From a virus, in UHGV virus genome UHGV-0204464: a stretch of DNA of 42,624 bases; one strand, 5' to 3'. The notes under the pieces were generated by a model, which ran no database searches, was not told the DNA's origin, and was given only the letters and a program-made list of their open reading frames with translations. This document shows positions 1-32,266 of this stretch, piece after piece; the stretch's first letter is position 1; every line of letters begins with the position of its first letter. Made by a program: the position numbers and the translations under genes.

Positions 1-546
1 ATGTTAAGTGAAGATATTAGAGATGTAGTTGGTTATGAGGGGCTTTATGCGGTAACTCGTGATGGTAGAGTTTACTCTCACTCAAGGATAATAAATACAT
101 GCCATGGGGCTACTCGATTAATGAAGGGTAGATGGCTGAAGCCAGCAAAGGATGGGGGCGGATATCTATTTGTTGGTCTCTGTAAGGATGGAGAGGTTAA
201 ACCAAAAAAAATACATCGAATTGTTGCTGAGGCATTTATTGAAAACAAAGAATCTAAACCATTCATCAACCATATAGATAATAATAATCAAAATAATAAT
301 GTAGAAAATCTTGAATGGTGTACGCAACATGAAAACATGCAGCATTGCTCTAGAAGCGGTAGGGTGAAAATACCTCATTATGTGGGTTCTGAACATCCAT
401 CGTCCAAATTAAATGAAGATATAGTTCTGGTCATAAAAAATGATTTGATTACGCCAATTAGCGAGTTAGCTGCAAGATATAATGTGACTGTTCAGGCCAT
501 ACACGCCATTAAAAAAGGGAAGACATGGAGGCATGTGAATGGCTGA
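1..546 (+). CDS. HNH homing endonuclease (NUMOD4-like N-terminus, HNH core, C-terminal HTH-like tail)
   Basis: 181-aa ORF; motifs [16 protein letters not shown] and HINHIDNN...[10 protein letters not shown]; AAGGAG at 42614-42619 sits 5 nt upstream of the ATG at base 1 if the window is circular; AT-rich, low-complexity Asn run. Confidence 0.7.
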
Positions 547-2397: not shown

Positions 2398-3849
2398 ATG
2401 GCTACGTGGCAACAGGGTATTAATTCTGGTGGTTTTCTGGCTGGCATCGGTACGCAAAATGAGAATGCGCCAAAGGCAAGCGACATTAACGCAACGCTTG
2501 GTCTGATTCGCGAAAACAATGAACTGGCTCGTTCAGGTGCAAATAACGTTGGTCTGACCGCGTTACGTGGTCTGGCTGGAGTTGCTGATATTTATAAGCA
2601 GCAGCAACAGCAGGAACGTAAAGCGGCATTCCAGAAAGGTTATGCGGATGCTTATGCGTCCGGCGACAGGGAGCAGATGCGTAATCTTATTACAGCATTC
2701 CCCGAAGAGTTTGAGGAAGTCCGTAAAGGCATGGGGTATGTCGATGACGCCCAGCGGAATGATTTTGGCAATCTGGCGCTCAAGGCTCAGGTAGCTTCGT
2801 CGCTTGGTCCGGGTGCATTTGGCAGGTTCATGATGGATAACGAAAAGGAGATGCGTCGTTTAGGTATCCCTCCAGAAACTATTGCGGAAATGCAGGTTAA
2901 TGACCCGCAGGGCTTCCAGCACTTCACAGGTAATCTGGCACTATTTTCTCTCGGTCATGAGAAGTATTTCGATATCAAAGATCAAATGGAAGGTCGGGAT
3001 ATTGAGCGTGGCAAGTTGGCAGAGACGATTCGCAGCAATAAAGCTGGGGAAGGTTTAAAGGCGCAAAGCATTGCTGTTAGCCGTGAAAACTCCCTGCGCA
3101 CTGCTGGAGGTGCTGTTCCTGCATCTGTTAAAGAATATCAATATTTCAACAGCCTGTCTCCAGAGCAACAAAAGACATATCTTCGTGTTCGAGGTCGTCC
3201 TGATGCTGGCGGGGAGAATGTTGTGCAACTGGCAGATGGCAGAACGGTAACGGTTGGTAGGAAGCTTCACGGCGCTGGTGCTAATGCGTTCTACGAAGGA
3301 ATAGACAACGAGGGCAATATGATTCGCGTCCCCGCAAGTTCTATTGCTGCTCCGGCTACATCGGCAGCTAATGCACAGAATTACGAAATGAAGAAAGATC
3401 TTGATGCAATTTCTGGCGCATCAATTGACGATCTTGGCTTCATGACAGGTATTACAGGTTCTTCAGGTTCTTTTGCTCTTGGTGCAGATATTCGTAGCAG
3501 GGCATCTGGTGTTGAGGAGAGGAGGCTATACAACGCTGCACAGCGAATCATGGGCAAAATGCAAAATCAGGGGATTGCAGCAGCCCGAGATATGGGGGCA
3601 TCTGGCATCAACACCGAAGCAGAGGCCAATAGGTATTTTCAGGGTATGCCAAAGCCTGATTTCTCAAGTCCTGAAGCGCTGCAACAATCAATGCGCGACA
3701 TTCAGCAATATACCGACAATTACAACCAGCAATATAACGTTAATGTTGGTAATGGCGGGAAGAAATCATCAAGGCAACAGTCAGCTACTCAGCAATCAGC
3801 AGGAGGTAGCTACACGTCAAAATCAGGCATTCAATTTACGGTGGAATGA
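2398..3849 (+). CDS. Ejection protein, P22 gp20-like
   Basis: 483-aa ORF in the gp20 position; RBS AAGGGG before the ATG. Confidence 0.55.
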
Positions 3850-5972
3850 TGAAAGTAACTGCAAACGGTAAGACATTTACCTTCCCTGATGGTACGAGCA
3901 CCGAAGATATTGGCACCGCCATTGATGAGTATTTTGCTGGTCAGGCTGTTCAGCAACAAACAGTTAATCAGGCCAATAATGCACCAACACAGGAAGAACC
4001 ATCATTGATGCAACAAGCTGGCGATTGGCTCACTGGTGGTCAAAGTGCAGGGCAAATTGCAGAACAGGCTGGTCGTGGTCTGGTAAACATACCATTTGAC
4101 GTATTACAGGGTGGCGCAAGTCTGATTAATGCAATCAGTCAGGGGCTTGGTGGGCCAAAAGTATTGGATGATGTCTATCGTCCAGTCGATCGACCGACAG
4201 ACCATTACGCGCAAGCCGGTGAAACAATTGGCGGGTATCTCCTGCCAATTGGTACAGCGGCAAAAGCTGCTGGAGCGCCAGCAAAGCTCGCTGGAGATAT
4301 CGGTTCCGCAGGAAACATGATTGCAGGCTCTCTTGCTGATGCTGCAAATCAGGAGGGCGATTTTGCACAAAATGCTGCCATTAACGGTGGTATCAATATT
4401 GGTGCTCAAGGCGTTATTTCAGGTGCCGGGCGCGTTATTGCGCCAAGGGTTTCACAGGCTCTTGGTGGTGCAGCACTGAATTCTGCTAATGATGTTTCCA
4501 GGATGGCAAAGTCAGATGCTGGGCGTCAGTCAATTGCCAGTCAGGCCGCTAATGTGTCCGAAGATGTAGCAAAAGCAGCTGAGTCTGCTGGAATTGATAT
4601 AAACGCATTAACACCAGGAATGCGATCTGGAAGTCGTGGAATTGCACAAGCCGAAGGCGCATTGGCATCAACACCTGGAATTGTTCAGGACGCCCATCAG
4701 GCAGCATTTAACGAAATATCATCAAAGTTAAGTCGAAACCTTGATGAATTTGGGGCCACATCTGGAACGGCATCAGAAAAAAGTGCGGCTATAAAACAAA
4801 GGATTCTTCAAAATCTTGATCAGATGAAGGATGCCGAGCGCGCGGCATGGGATGACGTGCGGTCAACAATGCCAAATCAAAAAGCAAGAATGCTAAATGG
4901 TAATGCCGTTATTCAGGCAGAGCGATCTGCTGGCATACCGCTTACTCCTGAAATGAAACAGTTTGTTCAGGCAAACAATCAAGGTGGAGTAACATTTGAT
5001 GGCATGAAAGCATGGAGAGCGAAATTTGCTGATGCGGAGCAAAAATATAAGCGTAGCGGAGAGGCAAATGCGGCAAGGAGAGCAGGGGAAATACGCCGGG
5101 CAATTACTGATGATATGCGCACAATGGCGGAAAACGGCGGATTTCTTGATGACTGGCAGAAAGCTAATGATCTGTCTAAAGCGAGGTTATCAGCACAAGA
5201 GAGTGCAGAGTCTGTTTTCGGGCGTGATTTGGCAACAGATGCACTGATTACGAATGGAGTAAAATCCCTTCAATCATCGTCAGCTAAAGGTCTTAATGGT
5301 CCTGCTGGATTCCATTCTATGATCCGCGCGCTGCCAGAATCAGAGCGTGTTCCTGCTATATCATCAATGTTGCAAGATGCTATCTCGCATGGTGTACGTG
5401 GTGGCAAAGCTGATGCAGCAGGAATTAACCATATCGCAGAGATACTGACTCCACAAAATGTAAAAGCCATTAGCCGATATTCCTCAGAGCTTGGAAGAAT
5501 TGCTGATGCATATGGCACTCTTGCAAGAGCAGCAGTGAAACCTCAGCAGTATATTGAAAGAACAGGTAGAACTGCCAATGTACTACGCGATCTGGATGCT
5601 GGTTTATCCAACGTCACATCAACAGTGTTAAATGCAATTGCCAATTCAACATCAGGTGCCATTGTTGGTGGCGCTGGAGGAGGCATTGCAGGCGCTGCCG
5701 CAGGTGCTTTAGTTGGCGCTGGGTTAAAAGGCGCTGTATCTAAAATTGCCACCACACGTAGTGGTCGGTATGCGATAGAGAAAGCAGTTCAGGAAGCAAC
5801 TAAAGCAGTAAGAGCAGGCGGAAGCAAAGAAGCATTAGCGGCGGCGGAACGCAGATTTATGGCAAATAAGGCCGCCGTAAAAGCAATACGCGAGGCACTA
5901 GGAAACGAAGAGTTCCAGCGTTTAGCAAGGGCTGGAATTGTGGCATCGCTAAGCGGAATGGCACAGGAGTAA
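3846..5972 (+). CDS. Ejection protein, P22 gp16-like (longer variant)
   Basis: 708-aa ORF overlapping the previous stop; Ala/Gly-rich with Gly-rich hydrophobic segments near the C-terminus; synteny. Confidence 0.55.
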
Positions 5973-6377
5973 TTAGTCATCCATGGATGGATTGAGCTTA
6001 TCTCGTGTTGATGTGGCAATTTTCCCAACATTTTTCAACCAAGATTTTAAGAAGGATATGTCGTCCTTAATATCATGAATATCCTCATTCTTTATACGAT
6101 CAACCTTATCCTCTAAGCTCTCTATAGAACGCTCAATGCTAGACAGAGAGATTTTTAAGTCCCCTTGCTCACGTTCCAGTGAGGATTTGAGAGCACAATA
6201 TTCGTTTTCTAGAATTCCTATTTTTTTTGTTAGAGAGTGCATTCGATACTCATACACCAAACCAGAAACGACTAATGCAGCCAACAGAAACCATTCAAGC
6301 ACACCAACCTCCTTAGTTTTGCGCAGGATACCAGATGATAATGTGTAGTTGGAGTAGCGCGGTTGTAATGCAAGCAT
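5973..6377 (-). CDS. Membrane-anchored coiled-coil protein; candidate superinfection-exclusion moron (sieA position)
   Basis: 134-aa ORF antisense to the late operon; one TM-like segment (LEWFLLAALVVSGLV) followed by a heptad-rich coiled coil; AT-rich; start codon uncertain. Confidence 0.45.
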   Translation of the reverse strand: MLALQPRYSNYTLSSGILRKTKEVGVLEWFLLAALVVSGLVYEYRMHSLTKKIGILENEYCALKSSLEREQGDLKISLSSIERSIESLEDKVDRIKNEDIHDIKDDISFLKSWLKNVGKIATSTRDKLNPSMDD

Positions 6378-6436
6378 TTTGTTTTGGTTTTATGCTTGCT
6401 TGTATGTGTGTACAGTGCATATAATGCAAGCATACA
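6364..6436 (+). promoter_or_regulatory. Candidate regulated promoter with three ATGCAAGCAT-type repeats
   Basis: Repeat copies at about 6367-6376, 6393-6401 (inverted) and 6424-6433; TATAAT at 6418-6423 with TTGCTTG about 17 bp upstream; directly upstream of the 6459 ATG. Confidence 0.35.
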
Positions 6437-6458
6437 TCACAACAAAGGTGCTTGCATT

Positions 6459-7451
6459 ATGACTGAAAAGAAAAGTGGCGAAGGGAAAGCTAAGGGCGGT
6501 ATCGCTCGCGCAAAGTCGCTGACTAAAGAGCAGCGTTCTGAAATAGCAAAGAAAGCAGCGGCTGCAAGATGGAAGGATAAACCATTAATTGCTACGCATA
6601 AGGGATCGTTCCAGCATGAATTCGGGATTGATGTTGAGTGCTATGTGTTAAATGATGATAACAAAACTGCCGTTATTAGCCAGAGAGGCATGGGAGAAGC
6701 GATTGGTCTTGGCGAAGGTGGCAGCAGGTTGCCAAAGTTTATTCAGGGGAAAACTATTTCTCAGTATATCGGGCATGAATTAAGGGCAAAACTTGAAAAT
6801 CCTCTTATTTTTCAATACAAACAGGCGGGCACGAACACTCCAGCTAATCCTGTAATACATGGCTACGATGTAACAATATTAATTGATTTATGTCGAGCAA
6901 TCTCTAATGCTAAAGCTGAAGGTAAGTTGCTTTCCAGTCAGGAAGGGATTGCTAAGCAAGCCAGAATCATTATTGATGCATCAGCCAAGGCGGGCATTCA
7001 GGGGCTTGTTTATGCTTTGGCAGGGTATGACAGAACAAAAGAAGAGGTAATTCAAGCATATAAGCGATATGTTGCTGAAGAGGCTCGTGAGTATGAAAGA
7101 GAGTTCACCCCTGAACTTTATGAGCATTGGTATCGTCTGTATGGTATAGACAAACCAGTTAGAGGGCGACCATGGGCGTTTAAATATCTTACGATAGATC
7201 ACATTTATTACCCATTAGCCAGAAGTGAAGGAAAGGTATTTAATTTAGCAAAAACGTCAAAAGAAGAAAAAGGCAGCAAGAACGATAAAATACACCAGTT
7301 TTTATCAGAGGTTGGAGTTAAGGCTCTTAGAACCCAAATAGGTAAGGTTACTGGTATTGCAATGGTTTCTGATACTCGAGAAGAGTATGAGAAATACATA
7401 GATGAAAAGGTTATTGGACAAAGAACCATAGACTTAAAAGATAAAGAATAA
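6459..7451 (+). CDS. Hypothetical protein with Lys/Arg-rich N-terminal DNA-binding-like segment
   Basis: Long ORF; most plausible ATG at 6459 (MTEKKSGEGKAKGGIARAKSLTKEQRSEIAKKAAAARW); the track ORF starts earlier at 6384. Confidence 0.6.
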   Translation: MTEKKSGEGKAKGGIARAKSLTKEQRSEIAKKAAAARWKDKPLIATHKGSFQHEFGIDVECYVLNDDNKTAVISQRGMGEAIGLGEGGSRLPKFIQGKTISQYIGHELRAKLENPLIFQYKQAGTNTPANPVIHGYDVTILIDLCRAISNAKAEGKLLSSQEGIAKQARIIIDASAKAGIQGLVYALAGYDRTKEEVIQAYKRYVAEEAREYEREFTPELYEHWYRLYGIDKPVRGRPWAFKYLTIDHIYYPLARSEGKVFNLAKTSKEEKGSKNDKIHQFLSEVGVKALRTQIGKVTGIAMVSDTREEYEKYIDEKVIGQRTIDLKDKE

Positions 7452-7452
7452 G

Positions 7453-7479
7453 AAAAACCCACCGTCAGGTGGGTTTTTT
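7453..7479. terminator. Bidirectional rho-independent terminator
   Basis: AAAAACCCACC-GTCA-GGTGGGTTTTTT: 7-bp GC-rich stem flanked by A-run and T-run; sits between convergent genes. Confidence 0.7.
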
Positions 7480-7504: not shown

Positions 7505-8041
7505 TCAAACAACCCACCAGTTTGCCTGATTGGATACCAGCCTTGCAGTTTTTATGGAATTAATTATGCCATGCTCAAGAGCCTTGTTAGCATCCAAAAT
7601 GGTCGAGTCTGCTATCAGGGATGCCCACCTAATATGGGTTCCGATGTCGATATTGAACGTCTCAACGAAGCGATCAAGATCGTTATCGAGGCATTTCCCG
7701 TACTCTCTCAATCTGGCATGGTCGGCGGCTGGGGAGGCAAAGCACCATAATAGAGGATGTAACAGGAATCTTGATAATGGGTTTGCGAAACGTTCTGAGC
7801 CAGCCAGGAAAACGATATTAGCTATGGATTCAACATTGCTTATGTTGTGAGTTCTAACGGTAACAGGGAGTGACTTAAGAAAGTTATACGCAGTAAAGCC
7901 AGCGGCTGTTTCCCCTCCCTGACTTGATATATGGATATTTAATTCAGTTGCGCCTTGAGATAATGCGGTGAGACAGTGGTTCTGAAGTTGCCCAACAGTG
8001 GCAGTGTTAACGGGGCATAAGAAATGAATTGTGTGCAGCAT
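7505..8041 (-). CDS. ClpP-like (S14 family) serine peptidase homologue, translationally coupled to mnt
   Basis: 178 aa; by-eye alignment to ClpP core (IHISSQGGETAAGF vs INSPGG.ITAG; candidate Ser in NVESIAN and His in LLHPL); ATG overlaps the mnt stop (TAATG). Confidence 0.5.
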   Translation of the reverse strand: MLHTIHFLCPVNTATVGQLQNHCLTALSQGATELNIHISSQGGETAAGFTAYNFLKSLPVTVRTHNISNVESIANIVFLAGSERFANPLSRFLLHPLLWCFASPAADHARLREYGKCLDNDLDRFVETFNIDIGTHIRWASLIADSTILDANKALEHGIINSIKTARLVSNQANWWVV

Positions 8042-22971: not shown

Positions 22972-23724
22972 TTATGCTGCAAGTCTCTTAACCCAAGTCT
23001 CTCTTTTGGAGAATGGTAGAACTTGGCTTGATTCATGGAAGAGTAAGGAGAGTTGTTGCATTTGATCACCAATTGCTTCGCTGTCTATAACAACAAATCT
23101 GTTGTTATACTCCTCACTTGAAGCTTTAAGATCAATTAGTTTCCCAAGCAATGAGTAAGCACTATTCCAGCTTCCTCCGTGTTTCACGCTTGATGTAAAA
23201 ACGTATTTAGGTATGTCGGTTTTTATTGTTACAGGGACGGTAATTTGATGTCCACTCAAGCCATATACGTTTTCACGAAGAGAAAGTGCGTCTCTAAGCT
23301 CTGTGTGATATAGATAATCAATAACCATACTTTCAAACTTTTCAGCTTGAACTGGCTGATACCAGTCTAACGACAAAGTTGATGCGAGTATACCAGCTCT
23401 AATTATGTTCGATGTAATCGCACCGACATCCTTTTCTGTTGCCCAAGCAATGATTTCTCCTCGAGCATTGAGTTCTGCGCCTTCTTTAAGCAGTAATTGT
23501 CGTATCTCATCAAGTCGTTTTTTGGTAAGCGAGATCCCTCTTGCCTCCATATTCATTAAGGCATCGCATCTGTCACTAACTAAATACCTACCATTGACTT
23601 CACGGATAAAGGCACCGACATGCTCTCCATCATCACAGTAAGTGAATGGACTGATAATTCTCAAGGTCTTGCCTATTGGATGGCATTCGAAACCTAGTTG
23701 TGAGATCACTGTTGAGCACATCAT
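22972..23724 (-). CDS. Hypothetical protein B of cI-linked cassette (unknown function)
   Basis: 250-aa ORF; ATG overlaps stop of upstream gene (ATGA); no TM segment and no motif I recognise; AT-rich. Confidence 0.6.
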   Translation of the reverse strand: MMCSTVISQLGFECHPIGKTLRIISPFTYCDDGEHVGAFIREVNGRYLVSDRCDALMNMEARGISLTKKRLDEIRQLLLKEGAELNARGEIIAWATEKDVGAITSNIIRAGILASTLSLDWYQPVQAEKFESMVIDYLYHTELRDALSLRENVYGLSGHQITVPVTIKTDIPKYVFTSSVKHGGSWNSAYSLLGKLIDLKASSEEYNNRFVVIDSEAIGDQMQQLSLLFHESSQVLPFSKRETWVKRLAA

Positions 23725-24278
23725 ATTCCAAACCCCATTTGCCCCGACTCATCTTCAAGCGGTAAAGGTATTCTCCCAGAGTAAGTTATGTTCAGATGTT
23801 TACAGAAGTAATTCCAATACCCTACCAGGTCATCTGGGTTTATGTCATCTTCGATTGGAAACGCTATTCTATCACTATAGTATCCAGCTTCTTCATAGTA
23901 TACATGGTAGTGAGCACCGTAAATGATATCTTGGTACTTCGGATGATCGACCTTGTAACTATTCGTGTGTTTGTCAAAGTGATAGGTATCTACCGCGAAA
24001 ACCCTCTTGTTATGATAGAAAGCAATAATATTTATTTTAGGGTAAGAAATCGGGTCATCAGGTTCTGAATCCTGATCTGGTTTCCATTTCAGTTCAAACT
24101 TTAGCCCTTGTATAGGTATACAATCCTCATCCAAGGGGATGATATGGGCTTGTAGCCACATATCAGAGCGACTTGGTTTCTGTTTCCATTTAACGCCAGA
24201 AAAGTTAACTATTTTTTTACAATAAAGTACTTTATCAACTTCTACTTGGCTTGGCTGATAATCATCTATTTTTGCCAA
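23721..24278 (-). CDS. Hypothetical protein A of cI-linked cassette (unknown function)
   Basis: 185-aa ORF beginning 39 nt after the cI stop; first in-frame codon is TTG with GGCGG upstream (next ATG is 39 codons in); Tyr/His/acidic-rich; AT-rich. Confidence 0.55.
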   Translation of the reverse strand: MAKIDDYQPSQVEVDKVLYCKKIVNFSGVKWKQKPSRSDMWLQAHIIPLDEDCIPIQGLKFELKWKPDQDSEPDDPISYPKINIIAFYHNKRVFAVDTYHFDKHTNSYKVDHPKYQDIIYGAHYHVYYEEAGYYSDRIAFPIEDDINPDDLVGYWNYFCKHLNITYSGRIPLPLEDESGQMGFGI

Positions 24279-24317: not shown

Positions 24318-24977
24318 TCACCCAAACGTCTCTTCAGGCCATTGGCTGGCGATAACTTTCCCCACAACGGAACAACTCTCATTGCATGGGATCATTGGGT
24401 ATTGTGGGTTTAGTGGCTGTAGAAACACCTGACCGCTATCCCTGATCAGTTTCTTGAAGGTAAATTCATCACCACCAAGTCTGGCTATGCAGAAATCGCC
24501 GGGCTCAACAGCTTGCTCAGGGTCAACCAGAATTAACATCCCGTCAGGAAAGCTGGGTTTGGAACCTGTTGGTGCGGTCATTGAGTTACCTTCAACCTCA
24601 AGCCAGAATGCAGAGTCACTGGCTTTTTTGGTTGTGCTTACCAATCTCTCCGCATCGCCTTTGGTAAAGGTTCTGAGTTCTGGAGAGAACATCCCAGCCT
24701 GAACATGAGAAAAAACAGGGTACTCATATTGTTTTTTAACTGGGGCCGATGAGTATTCGCCAACAGGTGAAAATGTCCCGTCGTGGTTGAATGATATGTT
24801 ATCAATACCAAGGTATTTAAACACCACACCAATATCACTAAGAGATGGATGACGAGATCCGCGCAACCAGTGTCCAATCCCACCCTGCGTCATACCTAGC
24901 TCTTCGGCTAACTTCTCTTGAGTTATGCCGAGCTCTTTCATTCTGGATCTAGCCAGTTCATACCATTTCATTTTCAT
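24318..24977 (-). CDS. cI: CI-type prophage repressor (HTH plus LexA-like S24 peptidase domain)
   Basis: N-terminal HTH ([20 protein letters not shown]), C-terminal autocleavage-type domain ([17 protein letters not shown]); divergent from cro; start taken at MKMKWY. Confidence 0.8.
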
Positions 24978-25088
24978 GTCCTTATTATTACGCTCTGTAC
25001 TGGAACCATCCATGCACAATGTGTATTTTTACTTGTATTCGCAAAGTACATATTGTATTTTTTTATTCGTGTTTACTATGGAGGGCAT
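24978..25088. promoter_or_regulatory. OR/PR/PRM region between cI and cro
   Basis: Divergent intergenic region with AGTACATATTGTAT and TACTT..AAGTA partial palindromes related to the OL palindrome; TTGTAT-17-TATTTT promoter candidate; GGAGG RBS before cro. Confidence 0.4.
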
Positions 25089-30835: not shown

Positions 30836-31119
30836 CACAACAGGTAAGTGCATTTGTAGAGTTCGACTCTCTACCGTGGGCTTTTTCCCGCGATGCGAGC
30901 CATAAGTGCTCTTTCCGTTGTGCTGAATTAAGCGAATGCCGGAAGCAGAACCGGATCACCAAATGCGTACAGGCGTCATCGCCGCCCAGCAACAGCACAA
31001 CCCAAACTGAGCCGTAGCCACTGGCTATCCTGAACTCATCAGTGATAGTTACGCTGCGGCCTTCTTTCCCCCTTCCCAATATAAGAACTACGCAATCCGT
31101 TACTGGCGGAGGCGTTGCT

Positions 31120-31335
31120 ATGAAATCAATGGACAAAATCTCAACTGGCATTGCCTACGGAACATCCGCTGGTAGTGCGGGATACTGGTTTTTGCAGTGG
31201 TTGGATCAGGTCAGTCCATCACAGTGGGCTGCGATTGGAGTGCTTGGAAGCCTTGTGTTGGGCTTTCTCACCTATCTGACAAATCTGTACTTCAAAATCA
31301 GAGAAGACAGAAGAAAGGCTGCGAGAGGTGAATAA
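31120..31335 (+). CDS. Class II holin / pinholin (phage 21 S21-like) with dual start MKSM
   Basis: [71 protein letters not shown] matches S21 from memory; two TM segments. Confidence 0.8.
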
Positions 31336-31832
31336 TGCCTCCATCATTACGAAAAGCCGTTGCTGCTGCTATTGGTGGCGGGGCTATTGCTATAGCATCT
31401 GTGTTAATCACTGGCCCAAGTGGTAACGATGGTCTGGAAGGTGTGAGACATAATCCTTACAAAGACATAGTTGGTGTATGGACTGTATGTTACGGGCATA
31501 CAGGAAAAGACATCATTCCCAGTAAAACGTATACCGAAGCAGAATGCAAAGCCCTCCTGAATAAAGACCTTGCCACGGTCGCCAGACAAATTAACCCGTA
31601 CATCAAAGTCGATATACCGGAAACAACGCGCGGCGCTCTTTACTCGTTCGTCTACAACGTGGGGGCTGGCAATTTCAGAACATCGACGCTTCTTCGCAAA
31701 ATAAACCAGGGCGATATCAAAGGCGCATGTGACCAGCTACGTCGCTGGACATACGCTGGCGGTAAGCAATGGAAAGGGCTGATGACCCGTCGTGATATTG
31801 AGCGTGAAGTCTGTTTGTGGGGGCAGCAATGA
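31335..31832 (+). CDS. SAR endolysin (signal-anchor-release lysozyme)
   Basis: 165 aa; N-terminal Gly/Ala-rich SAR domain ([20 protein letters not shown]) then lysozyme-like domain; overlaps holin stop. Confidence 0.85.
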
Positions 31833-32266
31833 GCAGGGTAACCGCGATTATCTCCGCTCTGGTTATCTGCATCATCGTCTGCCTGTCATGGGCTGTTAAT
31901 CATTACCGTGATAACGCCATTACCTACAAAGAGCAGCGCGATAAAGCCACATCCATCATCGCTGATATGCAGAAGCGTCAACGTGATGTAGCAGAACTCG
32001 ACGCCAGATACACAAAGGAGCTTGCTGATGCTAACGCGACTATCGAAAGTCTCCGTGCTGATGTTTCTGCTGGTCGTAAGCGCCTGCAAGTCGCCGCCAC
32101 CTGTGCAAAGTCAACGACCGGAGCCAGCAGCATGGGCGATGGAGAAAGCCCAAGACTTACAGCAGATGCTGAACTCAATTATTACCGTCTCAGAAGTGGA
32201 ATCGACAGGATAACCGCGCAGGTTAGCTACCTGCAGGAATACATCAGGACGCAATGCCTGAAATGA
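31829..32266 (+). CDS. i-spanin Rz
   Basis: N-terminal TM ([20 protein letters not shown]) then coiled-coil periplasmic domain; ATGA overlap with endolysin stop. Confidence 0.7.
32022..32213 (+). CDS. o-spanin Rz1 embedded in Rz (+1 frame)
   Basis: Signal peptide plus lipobox (LLVVSAC) followed by Pro-rich mature part; wholly inside Rz. Confidence 0.6.

What the first reader, a model, noticed from the sequence alone, without database searches (positions are those of the whole stretch)
5973..6377. Antisense membrane-anchored coiled-coil gene in the superinfection-exclusion position
Directly after the last ejection-protein gene, on the opposite strand, is a 134-aa ORF with one predicted TM helix followed by a heptad-rich coiled coil, in an AT-rich segment. 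In P22 this position holds sieA, which blocks superinfecting DNA entry. A different small membrane protein here may be a non-homologous exclusion or defence determinant expressed in the lysogen.
Basis: inference. Interest (0 to 1): 0.5.

Follow-up and report, generated by a model that had tools for sequence, protein, structure and literature searches.

The report
Known phage gene hkcB, function unknown
The flagged ORF is real but is hkcB, an already catalogued P22-like phage gene of unknown function that encodes a small membrane-anchored helical protein in the slot where P22 keeps its exclusion gene sieA, so an exclusion role is plausible but untested.

Summary
The ORF at 5973-6377 (-) exists, but the gene is shorter. 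It runs 5973-6302 (-), 109 aa, from a GTG preceded by AAGGAGG. It is a homologue of hkcB of phage HK620 (PHROG 5962), which the literature calls "unknown function".

It is a real gene (dN/dS 0.16-0.37). It has an N-terminal membrane anchor, about 80 residues of heptad-patterned helix, and a strongly conserved C-terminal motif. Charge distribution predicts that the helix lies in the cytoplasm, not the periplasm.

The family is tiny and confined to P22-like prophages of Escherichia, Salmonella, Klebsiella and Serratia. Wherever sequence beyond its stop codon was available, it lies tail-to-tail (0-4 nt) with ejection gene 16. That is the slot and strand of sieA in P22 and in prophage HS1. No hkcB locus carries a sieA, and there is no sequence or topology similarity to SieA.

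In several lineages hkcB sits just downstream of mnt, the prophage maintenance repressor, on the same strand. In this window a terminator and a convergent gene separate it from mnt, and only a weak conserved extended -10-like element is found upstream.

A SieA-like exclusion role is the best guess (about 0.35), but it is unproven. Interest is modest.

The parts
5973..6302 (-). hkcB coding sequence, 109 aa, GTG start, TAA stop at 5973-5975
   Evidence: PHROG 5962 E=2.8e-61 on residues 26-134 of the long ORF. 98% identical to HK620 HkcB. The GTG start is conserved in 9 loci. dN/dS is 0.16-0.37.
6303..6377 (-).
   Evidence: Upstream sequence is unrelated between homologous loci, and the in-frame ATG is absent in HK620, CUS-3 and L008. 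Homology in E. coli genomes ends 16-81 nt upstream of the GTG.
6308..6314 (-). Shine-Dalgarno sequence AAGGAGG, 5 nt before the GTG
   Evidence: Read. Conserved as AAGG(A/G)G(G/A) in all nine loci.
6246..6302 (-). N-terminal membrane anchor, residues 1-19 (MLEWFLLAALVVSGLVYEY)
   Evidence: Kyte-Doolittle 2.16 over 15 aa. No K/R before it and 3 K/R in the 15 aa after it. The same pattern holds in five divergent subfamilies.
6015..6233 (-). Heptad-patterned helix, residues 24-96, with two register breaks near residues 45-53 and 70-75
   Evidence: 3-4 hydrophobic spacing. AlphaFold2 single helix 2-103, pLDDT 86.5. Only generic coiled-coil matches in Pfam, PDB and NCBIfam.
5976..6098 (-). Most conserved module, residues 69-109, containing the motif SW[LIV]xNVGxIATxT[RK]DK
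   Evidence: Most invariant columns of alignment A1 fall here. dN/dS is 0.09-0.25 with dS 0.35-2.5, so the constraint is on the protein, not the DNA. The motif is retained in the remote members P0030 and P0032.
6325..6333 (-). Candidate extended -10 element TGgTATCCT, 22 nt upstream of the GTG; unverified
   Evidence: The block is kept in four unrelated upstream contexts (P63C, hkcC, and genes of 149 aa and 198 aa), and homology ends just upstream of it. No -35 is present, and it was not reported by the consensus scan.
3846..5972 (+). Gene-16-type ejection (DNA transfer) protein gene, the invariant convergent neighbour of hkcB
   Evidence: 95.6% identical to CUS-3 gp16 and 73% to HK620 gp16. 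hkcB abuts a gp16 homologue wherever the sequence beyond its stop was recovered: 45 of 48 other loci and both remote members.

Best explanation
The feature is hkcB, an accessory gene of the 'ant moron' of P22-like phages that carry the CUS-3/HK620 type of ejection protein gp16. It encodes a 109-aa single-pass inner-membrane protein. Residues 1-19 form the anchor, with the N-terminus predicted outside. About 85 residues of alpha-helix with heptad spacing are predicted to hang into the cytoplasm, ending in a conserved SWLKNVGKIATSTRDK motif.

My best guess is that it is made in the lysogen and works as a non-homologous counterpart of SieA. It would sit in the inner membrane and interfere with the inner-membrane end of the gp20/gp16 DNA-delivery conduit of incoming P22-like phages, so their DNA does not reach the cytoplasm.

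Shown: gene identity, true start, purifying selection, anchor-plus-helix architecture, invariant position next to gene 16, absence of sieA in every hkcB locus examined, and a same-strand position just downstream of mnt in several lineages.

Inferred: membrane topology, expression in the lysogen, and the whole exclusion mechanism. The confidence given (0.35) is for the exclusion function; the descriptive part is much more certain.
For: 1. Same slot and strand as sieA in P22 and as type B sieA in E. coli HS prophage HS1.
2. No type A or type B SieA is found in the window or in any of the 54 other loci searched, which include all 48 hkcB loci.
3. The position is kept wherever it can be read: 45 of 48 other loci show a gp16 homologue beside hkcB and the other three are truncated or below the match cut-off. 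All five subfamilies, down to about 25-30% identity, lie 0-4 nt tail-to-tail with gp16, in Escherichia, Salmonella, Klebsiella and Serratia.
4. In CUS-3, in Klebsiella L008 and in Serratia L053, hkcB is the last gene of a same-strand run that begins with mnt. In Serratia the moron consists of only mnt and hkcB, 36 nt apart. Mnt is a prophage maintenance repressor (PMC2629481).
5. A membrane anchor is conserved in hydrophobicity but not in sequence, which fits an inner-membrane site of action like that of SieA (PMC10883804).
6. It shows moron hallmarks: low GC, and absence from Dewey and CurroJimenez, which have the same gp16 type.
7. It is under purifying selection, so the protein is used.
Against: - There is no experiment on hkcB in any paper found.
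- There is no match to PADLOC defence models.
- There is no convincing sigma-70 promoter upstream in this window.
- Here hkcB is separated from Pmnt by an intrinsic terminator (7478..7453, minus strand) and by the convergent P63C gene.
- In about 32 of 46 loci the gene immediately upstream is divergent, so expression as part of an mnt operon is not general.
- The predicted topology puts most of the protein in the cytoplasm, away from the periplasmic part of the conduit.
- dN/dS stays below 0.45 everywhere, with no sign of an arms race.
- The tie to gp16 type can be explained by physical linkage alone.
Confidence: 0.35

Rival explanations
1. HkcB serves the phage's own cycle or the host's physiology rather than defence. 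It could be a membrane-tethered cytoplasmic coiled coil that scaffolds or titrates a host inner-membrane process such as division, envelope stress or a membrane protease. Alternatively it could handle the phage's own membrane-active gp16 during lytic growth.
For: The architecture (N-out anchor plus cytoplasmic coiled coil) is that of host scaffolds such as PspB, ZipA and YhcB; this comparison comes from my own knowledge and was not tested. HkcB is tied to one gp16 type across more than 64% gp16 divergence. It evolves under steady purifying selection without diversifying signal. It has no defence-model match.
Against: It lies on the strand opposite the late operon, so it cannot be made together with gp16. 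Phages with the same gp16 type do without it. There is no homology to any host scaffold family in Pfam or NCBIfam.
Confidence: 0.3
2. HkcB is an abortive-infection or sensor-type membrane protein. Its anchor would oligomerise and depolarise the membrane, or its helix would relay a signal, when a phage perturbs the inner membrane, killing or arresting the cell rather than blocking DNA entry.
For: It is a small single-TM protein with an oligomerising helix, placed in a prophage accessory region and next to other variable cargo (ClpP-like, P63C). A faint ZorA-like PADLOC hit (E=0.045) is noise but covers the anchor plus the start of the helix.
Against: There is no partner effector that is constant across loci. 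There is no toxin-like domain. The gene is carried stably in 154 of 5426 complete E. coli genomes.
Confidence: 0.15
3. The ORF is a chance or decaying reading frame, and the conserved block is kept for a DNA- or RNA-level reason, such as a recombination boundary or control of late read-through into the tailspike gene.
For: The 3' 122 nt of hkcB plus the end of gene 16 form a block shared between otherwise different morons. Chimeric ORFs that carry only the C-terminal 45 residues exist (P0022 and P0023). P22 ant-moron transcription is thought to affect tailspike level (PMC2629481).
Against: Synonymous sites are saturated while amino acids are kept: dS up to about 2.5, with dN/dS 0.09-0.25 in that block. 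The GTG and Shine-Dalgarno sequence are conserved. The frame is intact in all five subfamilies. No Rfam family matches inside the gene.
Confidence: 0.03

Closest known systems
HkcB of phage HK620 (also CUS-3 hkcB and epsilon34 gene 14; PHROG 5962)
   Same: Homologous: 98% identity to HK620 HkcB and about 50% to the CUS-3 and epsilon34 type. It has the same length, the same GTG start and the same position abutting gene 16.
   Different: Nothing essential differs. The upstream neighbour here is a P63C gene with a 106-nt palindrome, instead of hkcC (HK620) or a same-strand operon (CUS-3). The function of the family is unknown (PMC2629481).
SieA of phage P22 (types A, B and C)
   Same: It is the first gene after gene 16, on the opposite strand, in a P22-like prophage. 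It is a predicted inner-membrane protein. The two genes never co-occur in the loci examined (PMC10883804).
   Different: There is no sequence similarity, and no FxRYPxEAxxFNK motif. HkcB has one TM instead of three or four, and 109 aa instead of 162-212. It is linked to the CUS-3/HK620 gp16 type rather than the P22 type. SieA's exclusion activity is demonstrated, whereas HkcB's is not.
Other small membrane exclusion proteins (T4 Imm and Sp, HK97 gp15, lactococcal Sie2009); from my own knowledge, not tested here
   Same: They are short prophage- or phage-encoded proteins with an N-terminal membrane anchor that block DNA entry of related phages.
   Different: No homology was detected to anything outside the hkcB family in an exhaustive profile search. 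None of these is known to me as an anchor followed by one long coiled coil.
Rz-type i-spanin
   Same: An N-terminal TM followed by a coiled coil, about 110-150 aa.
   Different: The window has its own holin, lysozyme and Rz cassette at 31042-32266. hkcB is not in a lysis cassette and has no o-spanin partner. Its charge pattern predicts a cytoplasmic helix, not a periplasmic one. The only spanin-related match is a sub-threshold hit to the Rz1-like o-spanin model, not to an i-spanin (E=0.052).

Membership tests
HkcB family (PHROG 5962) | Significant full-length match to the family profile | tested here: met
   E=2.8e-61, profile positions 1-109 of 109. 98% identity to HK620 HkcB.
HkcB family (PHROG 5962) | Position tail-to-tail with gene 16 in a P22-like genome | tested here: met
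   Stop codons abut in the window. A gp16 homologue flanks hkcB in 45 of 48 other loci, and the other three are truncated or below the match cut-off. The remote members lie 3-4 nt from gp16.
SieA superinfection exclusion proteins | Sequence similarity to SieA type A, B or C, including the FxRYPxEAxxFNK motif | tested here: not met
   BLASTP finds no alignment with E<=100. The motif is absent in HkcB but present in P22 and HS1 SieA. Type C was not tested.
SieA superinfection exclusion proteins | Three or four transmembrane segments | tested here: not met
   There is a single hydrophobic segment at residues 1-19, and the rest is a charged helix. TMHMM and DeepTMHMM were not available.
SieA superinfection exclusion proteins | Located between genes 16 and 9 of a P22-like prophage, opposite to the late operon | tested here: met
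SieA superinfection exclusion proteins | Blocks DNA injection by P22-like phages | not testable with these tools
   This needs efficiency-of-plating, K+ efflux or DNA-entry assays.
Moron (independently expressed insert in a phage operon) | Absent between the same flanking genes in related phages | tested here: met
   In Dewey and CurroJimenez, gene 16 is followed directly by the tailspike gene.
Moron (independently expressed insert in a phage operon) | Own promoter and terminator | tested here: inconclusive
   Only a conserved TGgTATCCT extended -10-like element is found. The consensus scan reports no promoter. There is no room for a terminator before gene 16.
Moron (independently expressed insert in a phage operon) | Base composition different from the flanking operon | tested here: met
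   GC is 0.38-0.40 against 0.46-0.52.
Rz-type i-spanin | Member of the lysis cassette with an o-spanin partner | tested here: not met
   The lysis cassette, with an Rz gene (PF03245, E=1e-36), lies at 31042-32266. hkcB has no Pfam Rz match.

The most novel reading that the evidence does not exclude
HkcB is a new family of superinfection exclusion protein, unrelated to SieA. It would act from the cytoplasmic face of the inner membrane, using its conserved C-terminal tip to bind and plug the gp16 end of the ejection-protein conduit. It would have co-evolved with the CUS-3/HK620 type of gp16, as SieA has with the P22 type. That would give two independent solutions to the same problem at the same genomic slot.
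Probability: 0.3. Interest if true: 0.55.

Novelty: new member of a known kind. Interest (0 to 1): 0.3.

Why it matters
If HkcB excludes phages, the slot after gene 16 would be a swap site for unrelated inner-membrane blockers of the P22-type DNA conduit. A one-helix protein would be a much simpler handle than SieA for asking how gp16 and gp20 cross the inner membrane, which is still unresolved (PMC10883804). It would also put a function on a gene annotated 'hypothetical protein' in every listed match among the 154 of 5426 complete E. coli genomes that carry it, including K1 and uropathogenic strains. If it does not exclude phages, it remains one more small prophage gene of unknown role.

Tried and rejected
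- Pfam, NCBIfam, PADLOC and a PDB sequence profile gave only sub-threshold, coiled-coil-type matches.
- Foldseek of the AlphaFold2 model against viral structures gave 0 hits, as expected for a single helix. Other fold libraries were not tried for that reason.
- An exhaustive profile search of 1.84 billion representatives found only about six family clusters. The rest were long coiled-coil proteins.
- Scans of genome contigs with the family alignment and with P0032 found nothing. A viral-contig scan with P0032 also found nothing.
- Rfam found no RNA family inside hkcB.
- The i-spanin idea was rejected.
- The idea that the conserved C-terminal helix is a distinct membrane-binding amphipathic helix was not supported. 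Its hydrophobic moment is no higher than the rest of the helix.
- A mirror-image promoter inside the intergenic palindrome was looked for and not found.
- Searches for 'hkcB' alone returned unrelated papers. The Tai defence paper mentions HK620 but not this locus.

Full report
**What the window is.** The window is a complete or nearly complete P22-like (Lederbergvirus-type) genome.
- The virion and ejection genes are the tail needle gene, DUF2824, gp7 (PF25688), gp20 (PF16928) and a 708-aa gene-16-type DNA transfer protein at 3846-5972.
- An 'ant moron' follows, containing mnt, arc, sar RNA (RF00262, E=3e-15) and ant.
- Then come an endosialidase tailspike like that of CUS-3, an integrase, a cI-type repressor and a holin-lysozyme-Rz cassette.

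**Checking the observation.** The 134-aa ORF at 5973..6377 (-) is there.
- Its stop codon touches the stop codon of gene 16, read as TAA|TTA.
- GC falls to 0.38-0.40 across it, against 0.46-0.52 in the ejection genes.
- It has one hydrophobic stretch, followed by a 3-4 hydrophobic repeat that runs for about 70 residues with two register breaks.
- AlphaFold2 on a six-sequence alignment gives one helix from residue 2 to 103, mean pLDDT 86.5.
- In P22, sieA is the first gene after gene 16 on the opposite strand.

**The true start.** The gene is shorter than the ORF.
- PHROG 5962, a 109-position profile, matches residues 26-134 at E=2.8e-61.
- HK620 hkcB is annotated at 109 aa and CUS-3 hkcB at 107 aa.
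- In nine homologous loci the reading frame begins at the same GTG. It is preceded by AAGG(A/G)G(G/A) and a 5-nt spacer, while sequence further upstream is unrelated.
- In complete E. coli genomes, homology to the window ends 16-81 nt upstream of the GTG, mostly within 16-66 nt.

The gene is therefore 5973..6302 (-). The GTG is at 6300-6302 and the Shine-Dalgarno sequence at 6308-6314. Several database proteins of 112-179 aa (P0005, P0024, P0027, P0028) are the same over-extension made by gene callers.

**It is a real gene.** Nei-Gojobori estimates between the window and relatives at 68%, 50% and 47% identity give dN/dS of 0.23-0.37, with dS of 0.65-1.8. The comparison between CUS-3 and the Klebsiella locus gives 0.16. 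The C-terminal 41 codons are the most constrained, at 0.09-0.25. Their synonymous sites are far from conserved (dS 0.35-2.5). The conserved block at the 3' end is therefore kept for the protein, not for a DNA or RNA signal.

**What the protein looks like.**
- Residues 1-19 (MLEWFLLAALVVSGLVYEY) form the anchor.
- Residues 24-96 carry the heptad pattern.
- Residues 69-109 hold most of the invariant columns, including SW[LIV]xNVGxIATxT[RK]DK. The remote members P0030 and P0032 keep this motif.
- In all five subfamilies there is no Lys or Arg before the anchor, and there are two or three in the 15 residues after it.

By the positive-inside rule the N-terminus is outside and the helix is cytoplasmic. 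This is an inference, because no dedicated topology predictor was available.

**How wide the family is.**
- A word-indexed search found 26 proteins, all from Escherichia, Salmonella, Klebsiella or metagenomes.
- An exhaustive HMM search of 1.84 billion representatives found 12 hits. About six are true family clusters and the rest are long coiled-coil proteins.
- There is no significant match in Pfam, NCBIfam, PADLOC, PDB sequences or predicted viral structures.
- Of 5426 complete E. coli genomes, 154 carry it: 82 of the HK620 type and 72 detected through the conserved 3' part. All matches are chromosomal, and every listed one is annotated 'hypothetical protein'.

**Context.** I examined 41 IMG/VR loci, five phage records and the loci found for divergent members.
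- The gene lies tail-to-tail with a gp16 homologue in 45 of these 48 loci. In the other three, the contig ends too close to hkcB or the gp16 match fell below the length cut-off used.
- This holds for the Serratia marcescens member (about 30% identity, 3 nt from gp16). It also holds for the most remote member, P0032, which is 4 nt from a gene 64% identical to the C-terminal 280 aa of the window's gp16.
- What lies upstream varies. It can be mnt, a ClpP-like gene or two other genes on the same strand, or a P63C gene or hkcC on the other strand.
- The immediate upstream gene is co-oriented in about 14 of 46 loci and divergent in about 32.
- In CUS-3, Klebsiella L008 and Serratia L053, hkcB ends a same-strand run that starts with mnt. 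In Serratia the moron is only mnt plus hkcB, 36 nt apart, with no ant.
- Dewey and CurroJimenez have the same gp16 type and no moron at all, so hkcB is dispensable.

**Relation to sieA.**
- P22 SieA (type A) and the HS1 protein (type B) both sit in this slot. The HS1 protein is 28% identical to P22 SieA and carries the motif.
- Neither type is found in the window or in any of the 54 other loci searched.
- HkcB shows no alignment to SieA and has one TM rather than three or four.
- All hkcB-linked gp16 proteins are at least 64% identical to the window's gp16 over the aligned region. That region is about 650 aa in the full-length genes and 280 aa in the truncated L054 gene.
- P22 gp16 shares only the N-terminal 200 aa with the window's gp16. 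HS1 gp16 is 76% identical to P22 gp16 over 559 aa and aligns with the window's over only about 370 N-terminal residues at 42%.
- So the slot gene goes with the type of the gp16 C-terminal domain. This may reflect function. It is equally explained by linkage: crossovers in the shared gp16 N-terminal part would carry the gp16 C-terminal part and the slot gene together.

**Expression.**
- The consensus scan finds no promoter for hkcB in this window.
- A strong intrinsic terminator at 7478..7453 (-), after the ClpP-like gene, and the convergent P63C gene at 6459-7451 (+) separate it from Pmnt.
- One element survives in four unrelated upstream contexts, with homology ending just beyond it. This is TGgTATCCT at 6333..6325 (-), which fits an extended -10.

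This is a lead, not evidence of transcription.

**Literature.** HK620 hkcB is listed as 'unknown'. The epsilon34 paper calls it a gene of unknown function in the fast-changing ant moron (PMC2629481). [quoted passage not shown] It also reports that only 22 of 66 P22-like phages carry sieA, and it does not mention hkcB (PMC10883804). I found no functional study of hkcB.

**Verdict.** The gene is an already catalogued family, so the finding is not a new feature.

Several results strengthen it:
- hkcB and sieA never occur together in the loci examined.
- The position is conserved across genera.
- In several lineages hkcB follows mnt on the same strand.
- The membrane anchor is conserved.

Several results weaken it:
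- The helix is predicted to be cytoplasmic.
- No clear promoter is found here.
- No defence-model match is found.
- No experiment exists.

Rivals are a non-defence membrane scaffold role (0.3), an abortive-infection or sensor role (0.15) and a non-coding explanation (0.03, largely excluded by the dN/dS result). The remaining probability is for functions I have not thought of. The experiments that would settle it are simple and listed above.

Noticed in passing
window 6360-6465: The whole intergenic region between hkcB and the P63C gene is a 106-nt imperfect palindrome. It contains four copies of ATGCAAGCAT/ATGCTTGCAT arranged as two inverted pairs (6368-6377/6392-6401 and 6424-6433/6448-6457). 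As RNA it folds at -52.3 kcal/mol (z = -6.7). It encloses a plus-strand promoter-like site, TTGCTT-18-TATAAT (6396-6425), and its right end overlaps the P63C ATG at 6459. It may be an operator array or a hairpin controlling the P63C gene.
   Followed up: partly
window 7505-8041 (-): A 178-aa ClpP-like serine protease (PF00574, E=2e-11, below family-specific NCBIfam cut-offs) sits directly downstream of mnt on the same strand, inside the ant moron and far from the head genes. It is followed by a strong bidirectional-looking terminator at 7453-7478. In some relatives (L004) it lies immediately upstream of hkcB. Its role is unknown.
   Followed up: partly
window 6459-7451 (+): A 330-aa P63C-domain protein (PF10546, E=1e-8; PHROG 2384, E=5e-103) of unknown function lies between hkcB and the ClpP-like gene. 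It is one of the two common divergent neighbours of hkcB; the other is hkcC.
   Followed up: partly
L001 1045-3210 and L003 2114-4270 (HK620 and CUS-3 gene 16): BLASTP of the deposited HK620 and CUS-3 gp16 sequences gives 77% identity over 725 aligned positions. PMC10883804 states that these two proteins are only 26% identical and uses that figure to explain their different SieA sensitivity. The discrepancy is unexplained.
   Followed up: partly
P0022, P0023 (metagenome contigs of 1.2-1.7 kb): These are chimeric ORFs in which the last 45 residues of HkcB are fused to an unrelated N-terminal part without a TM. The break is near codon 65, the same place where the HK620-type and CUS-3-type genes stop being alike at the DNA level (window about 6094). 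This suggests a recombination hotspot inside the gene.
   Followed up: no
window 1-546 (+): An HNH/NUMOD4 homing-endonuclease-like ORF (PF13392, PF07463) lies just upstream of, and overlaps by 8 nt, the tail needle gene. It has a low-GC segment (0.34-0.36), so it looks like a mobile insertion in the late operon.
   Followed up: no
window 22972-24278 (-): Two genes lie directly downstream of the cI-type repressor (24318-25019) on the same strand: one of 185 aa (weak DUF6978 match) and one of 250 aa (DUF1828). This is the position of rexAB-like prophage-expressed cargo, so they are candidate defence genes.
   Followed up: no
L053 8713-9315 (Serratia marcescens prophage): This is a minimal moron made only of an mnt homologue and an hkcB homologue, with no ant gene for Mnt to repress. 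It suggests that Mnt and HkcB can form a regulator-plus-effector pair.
   Followed up: partly
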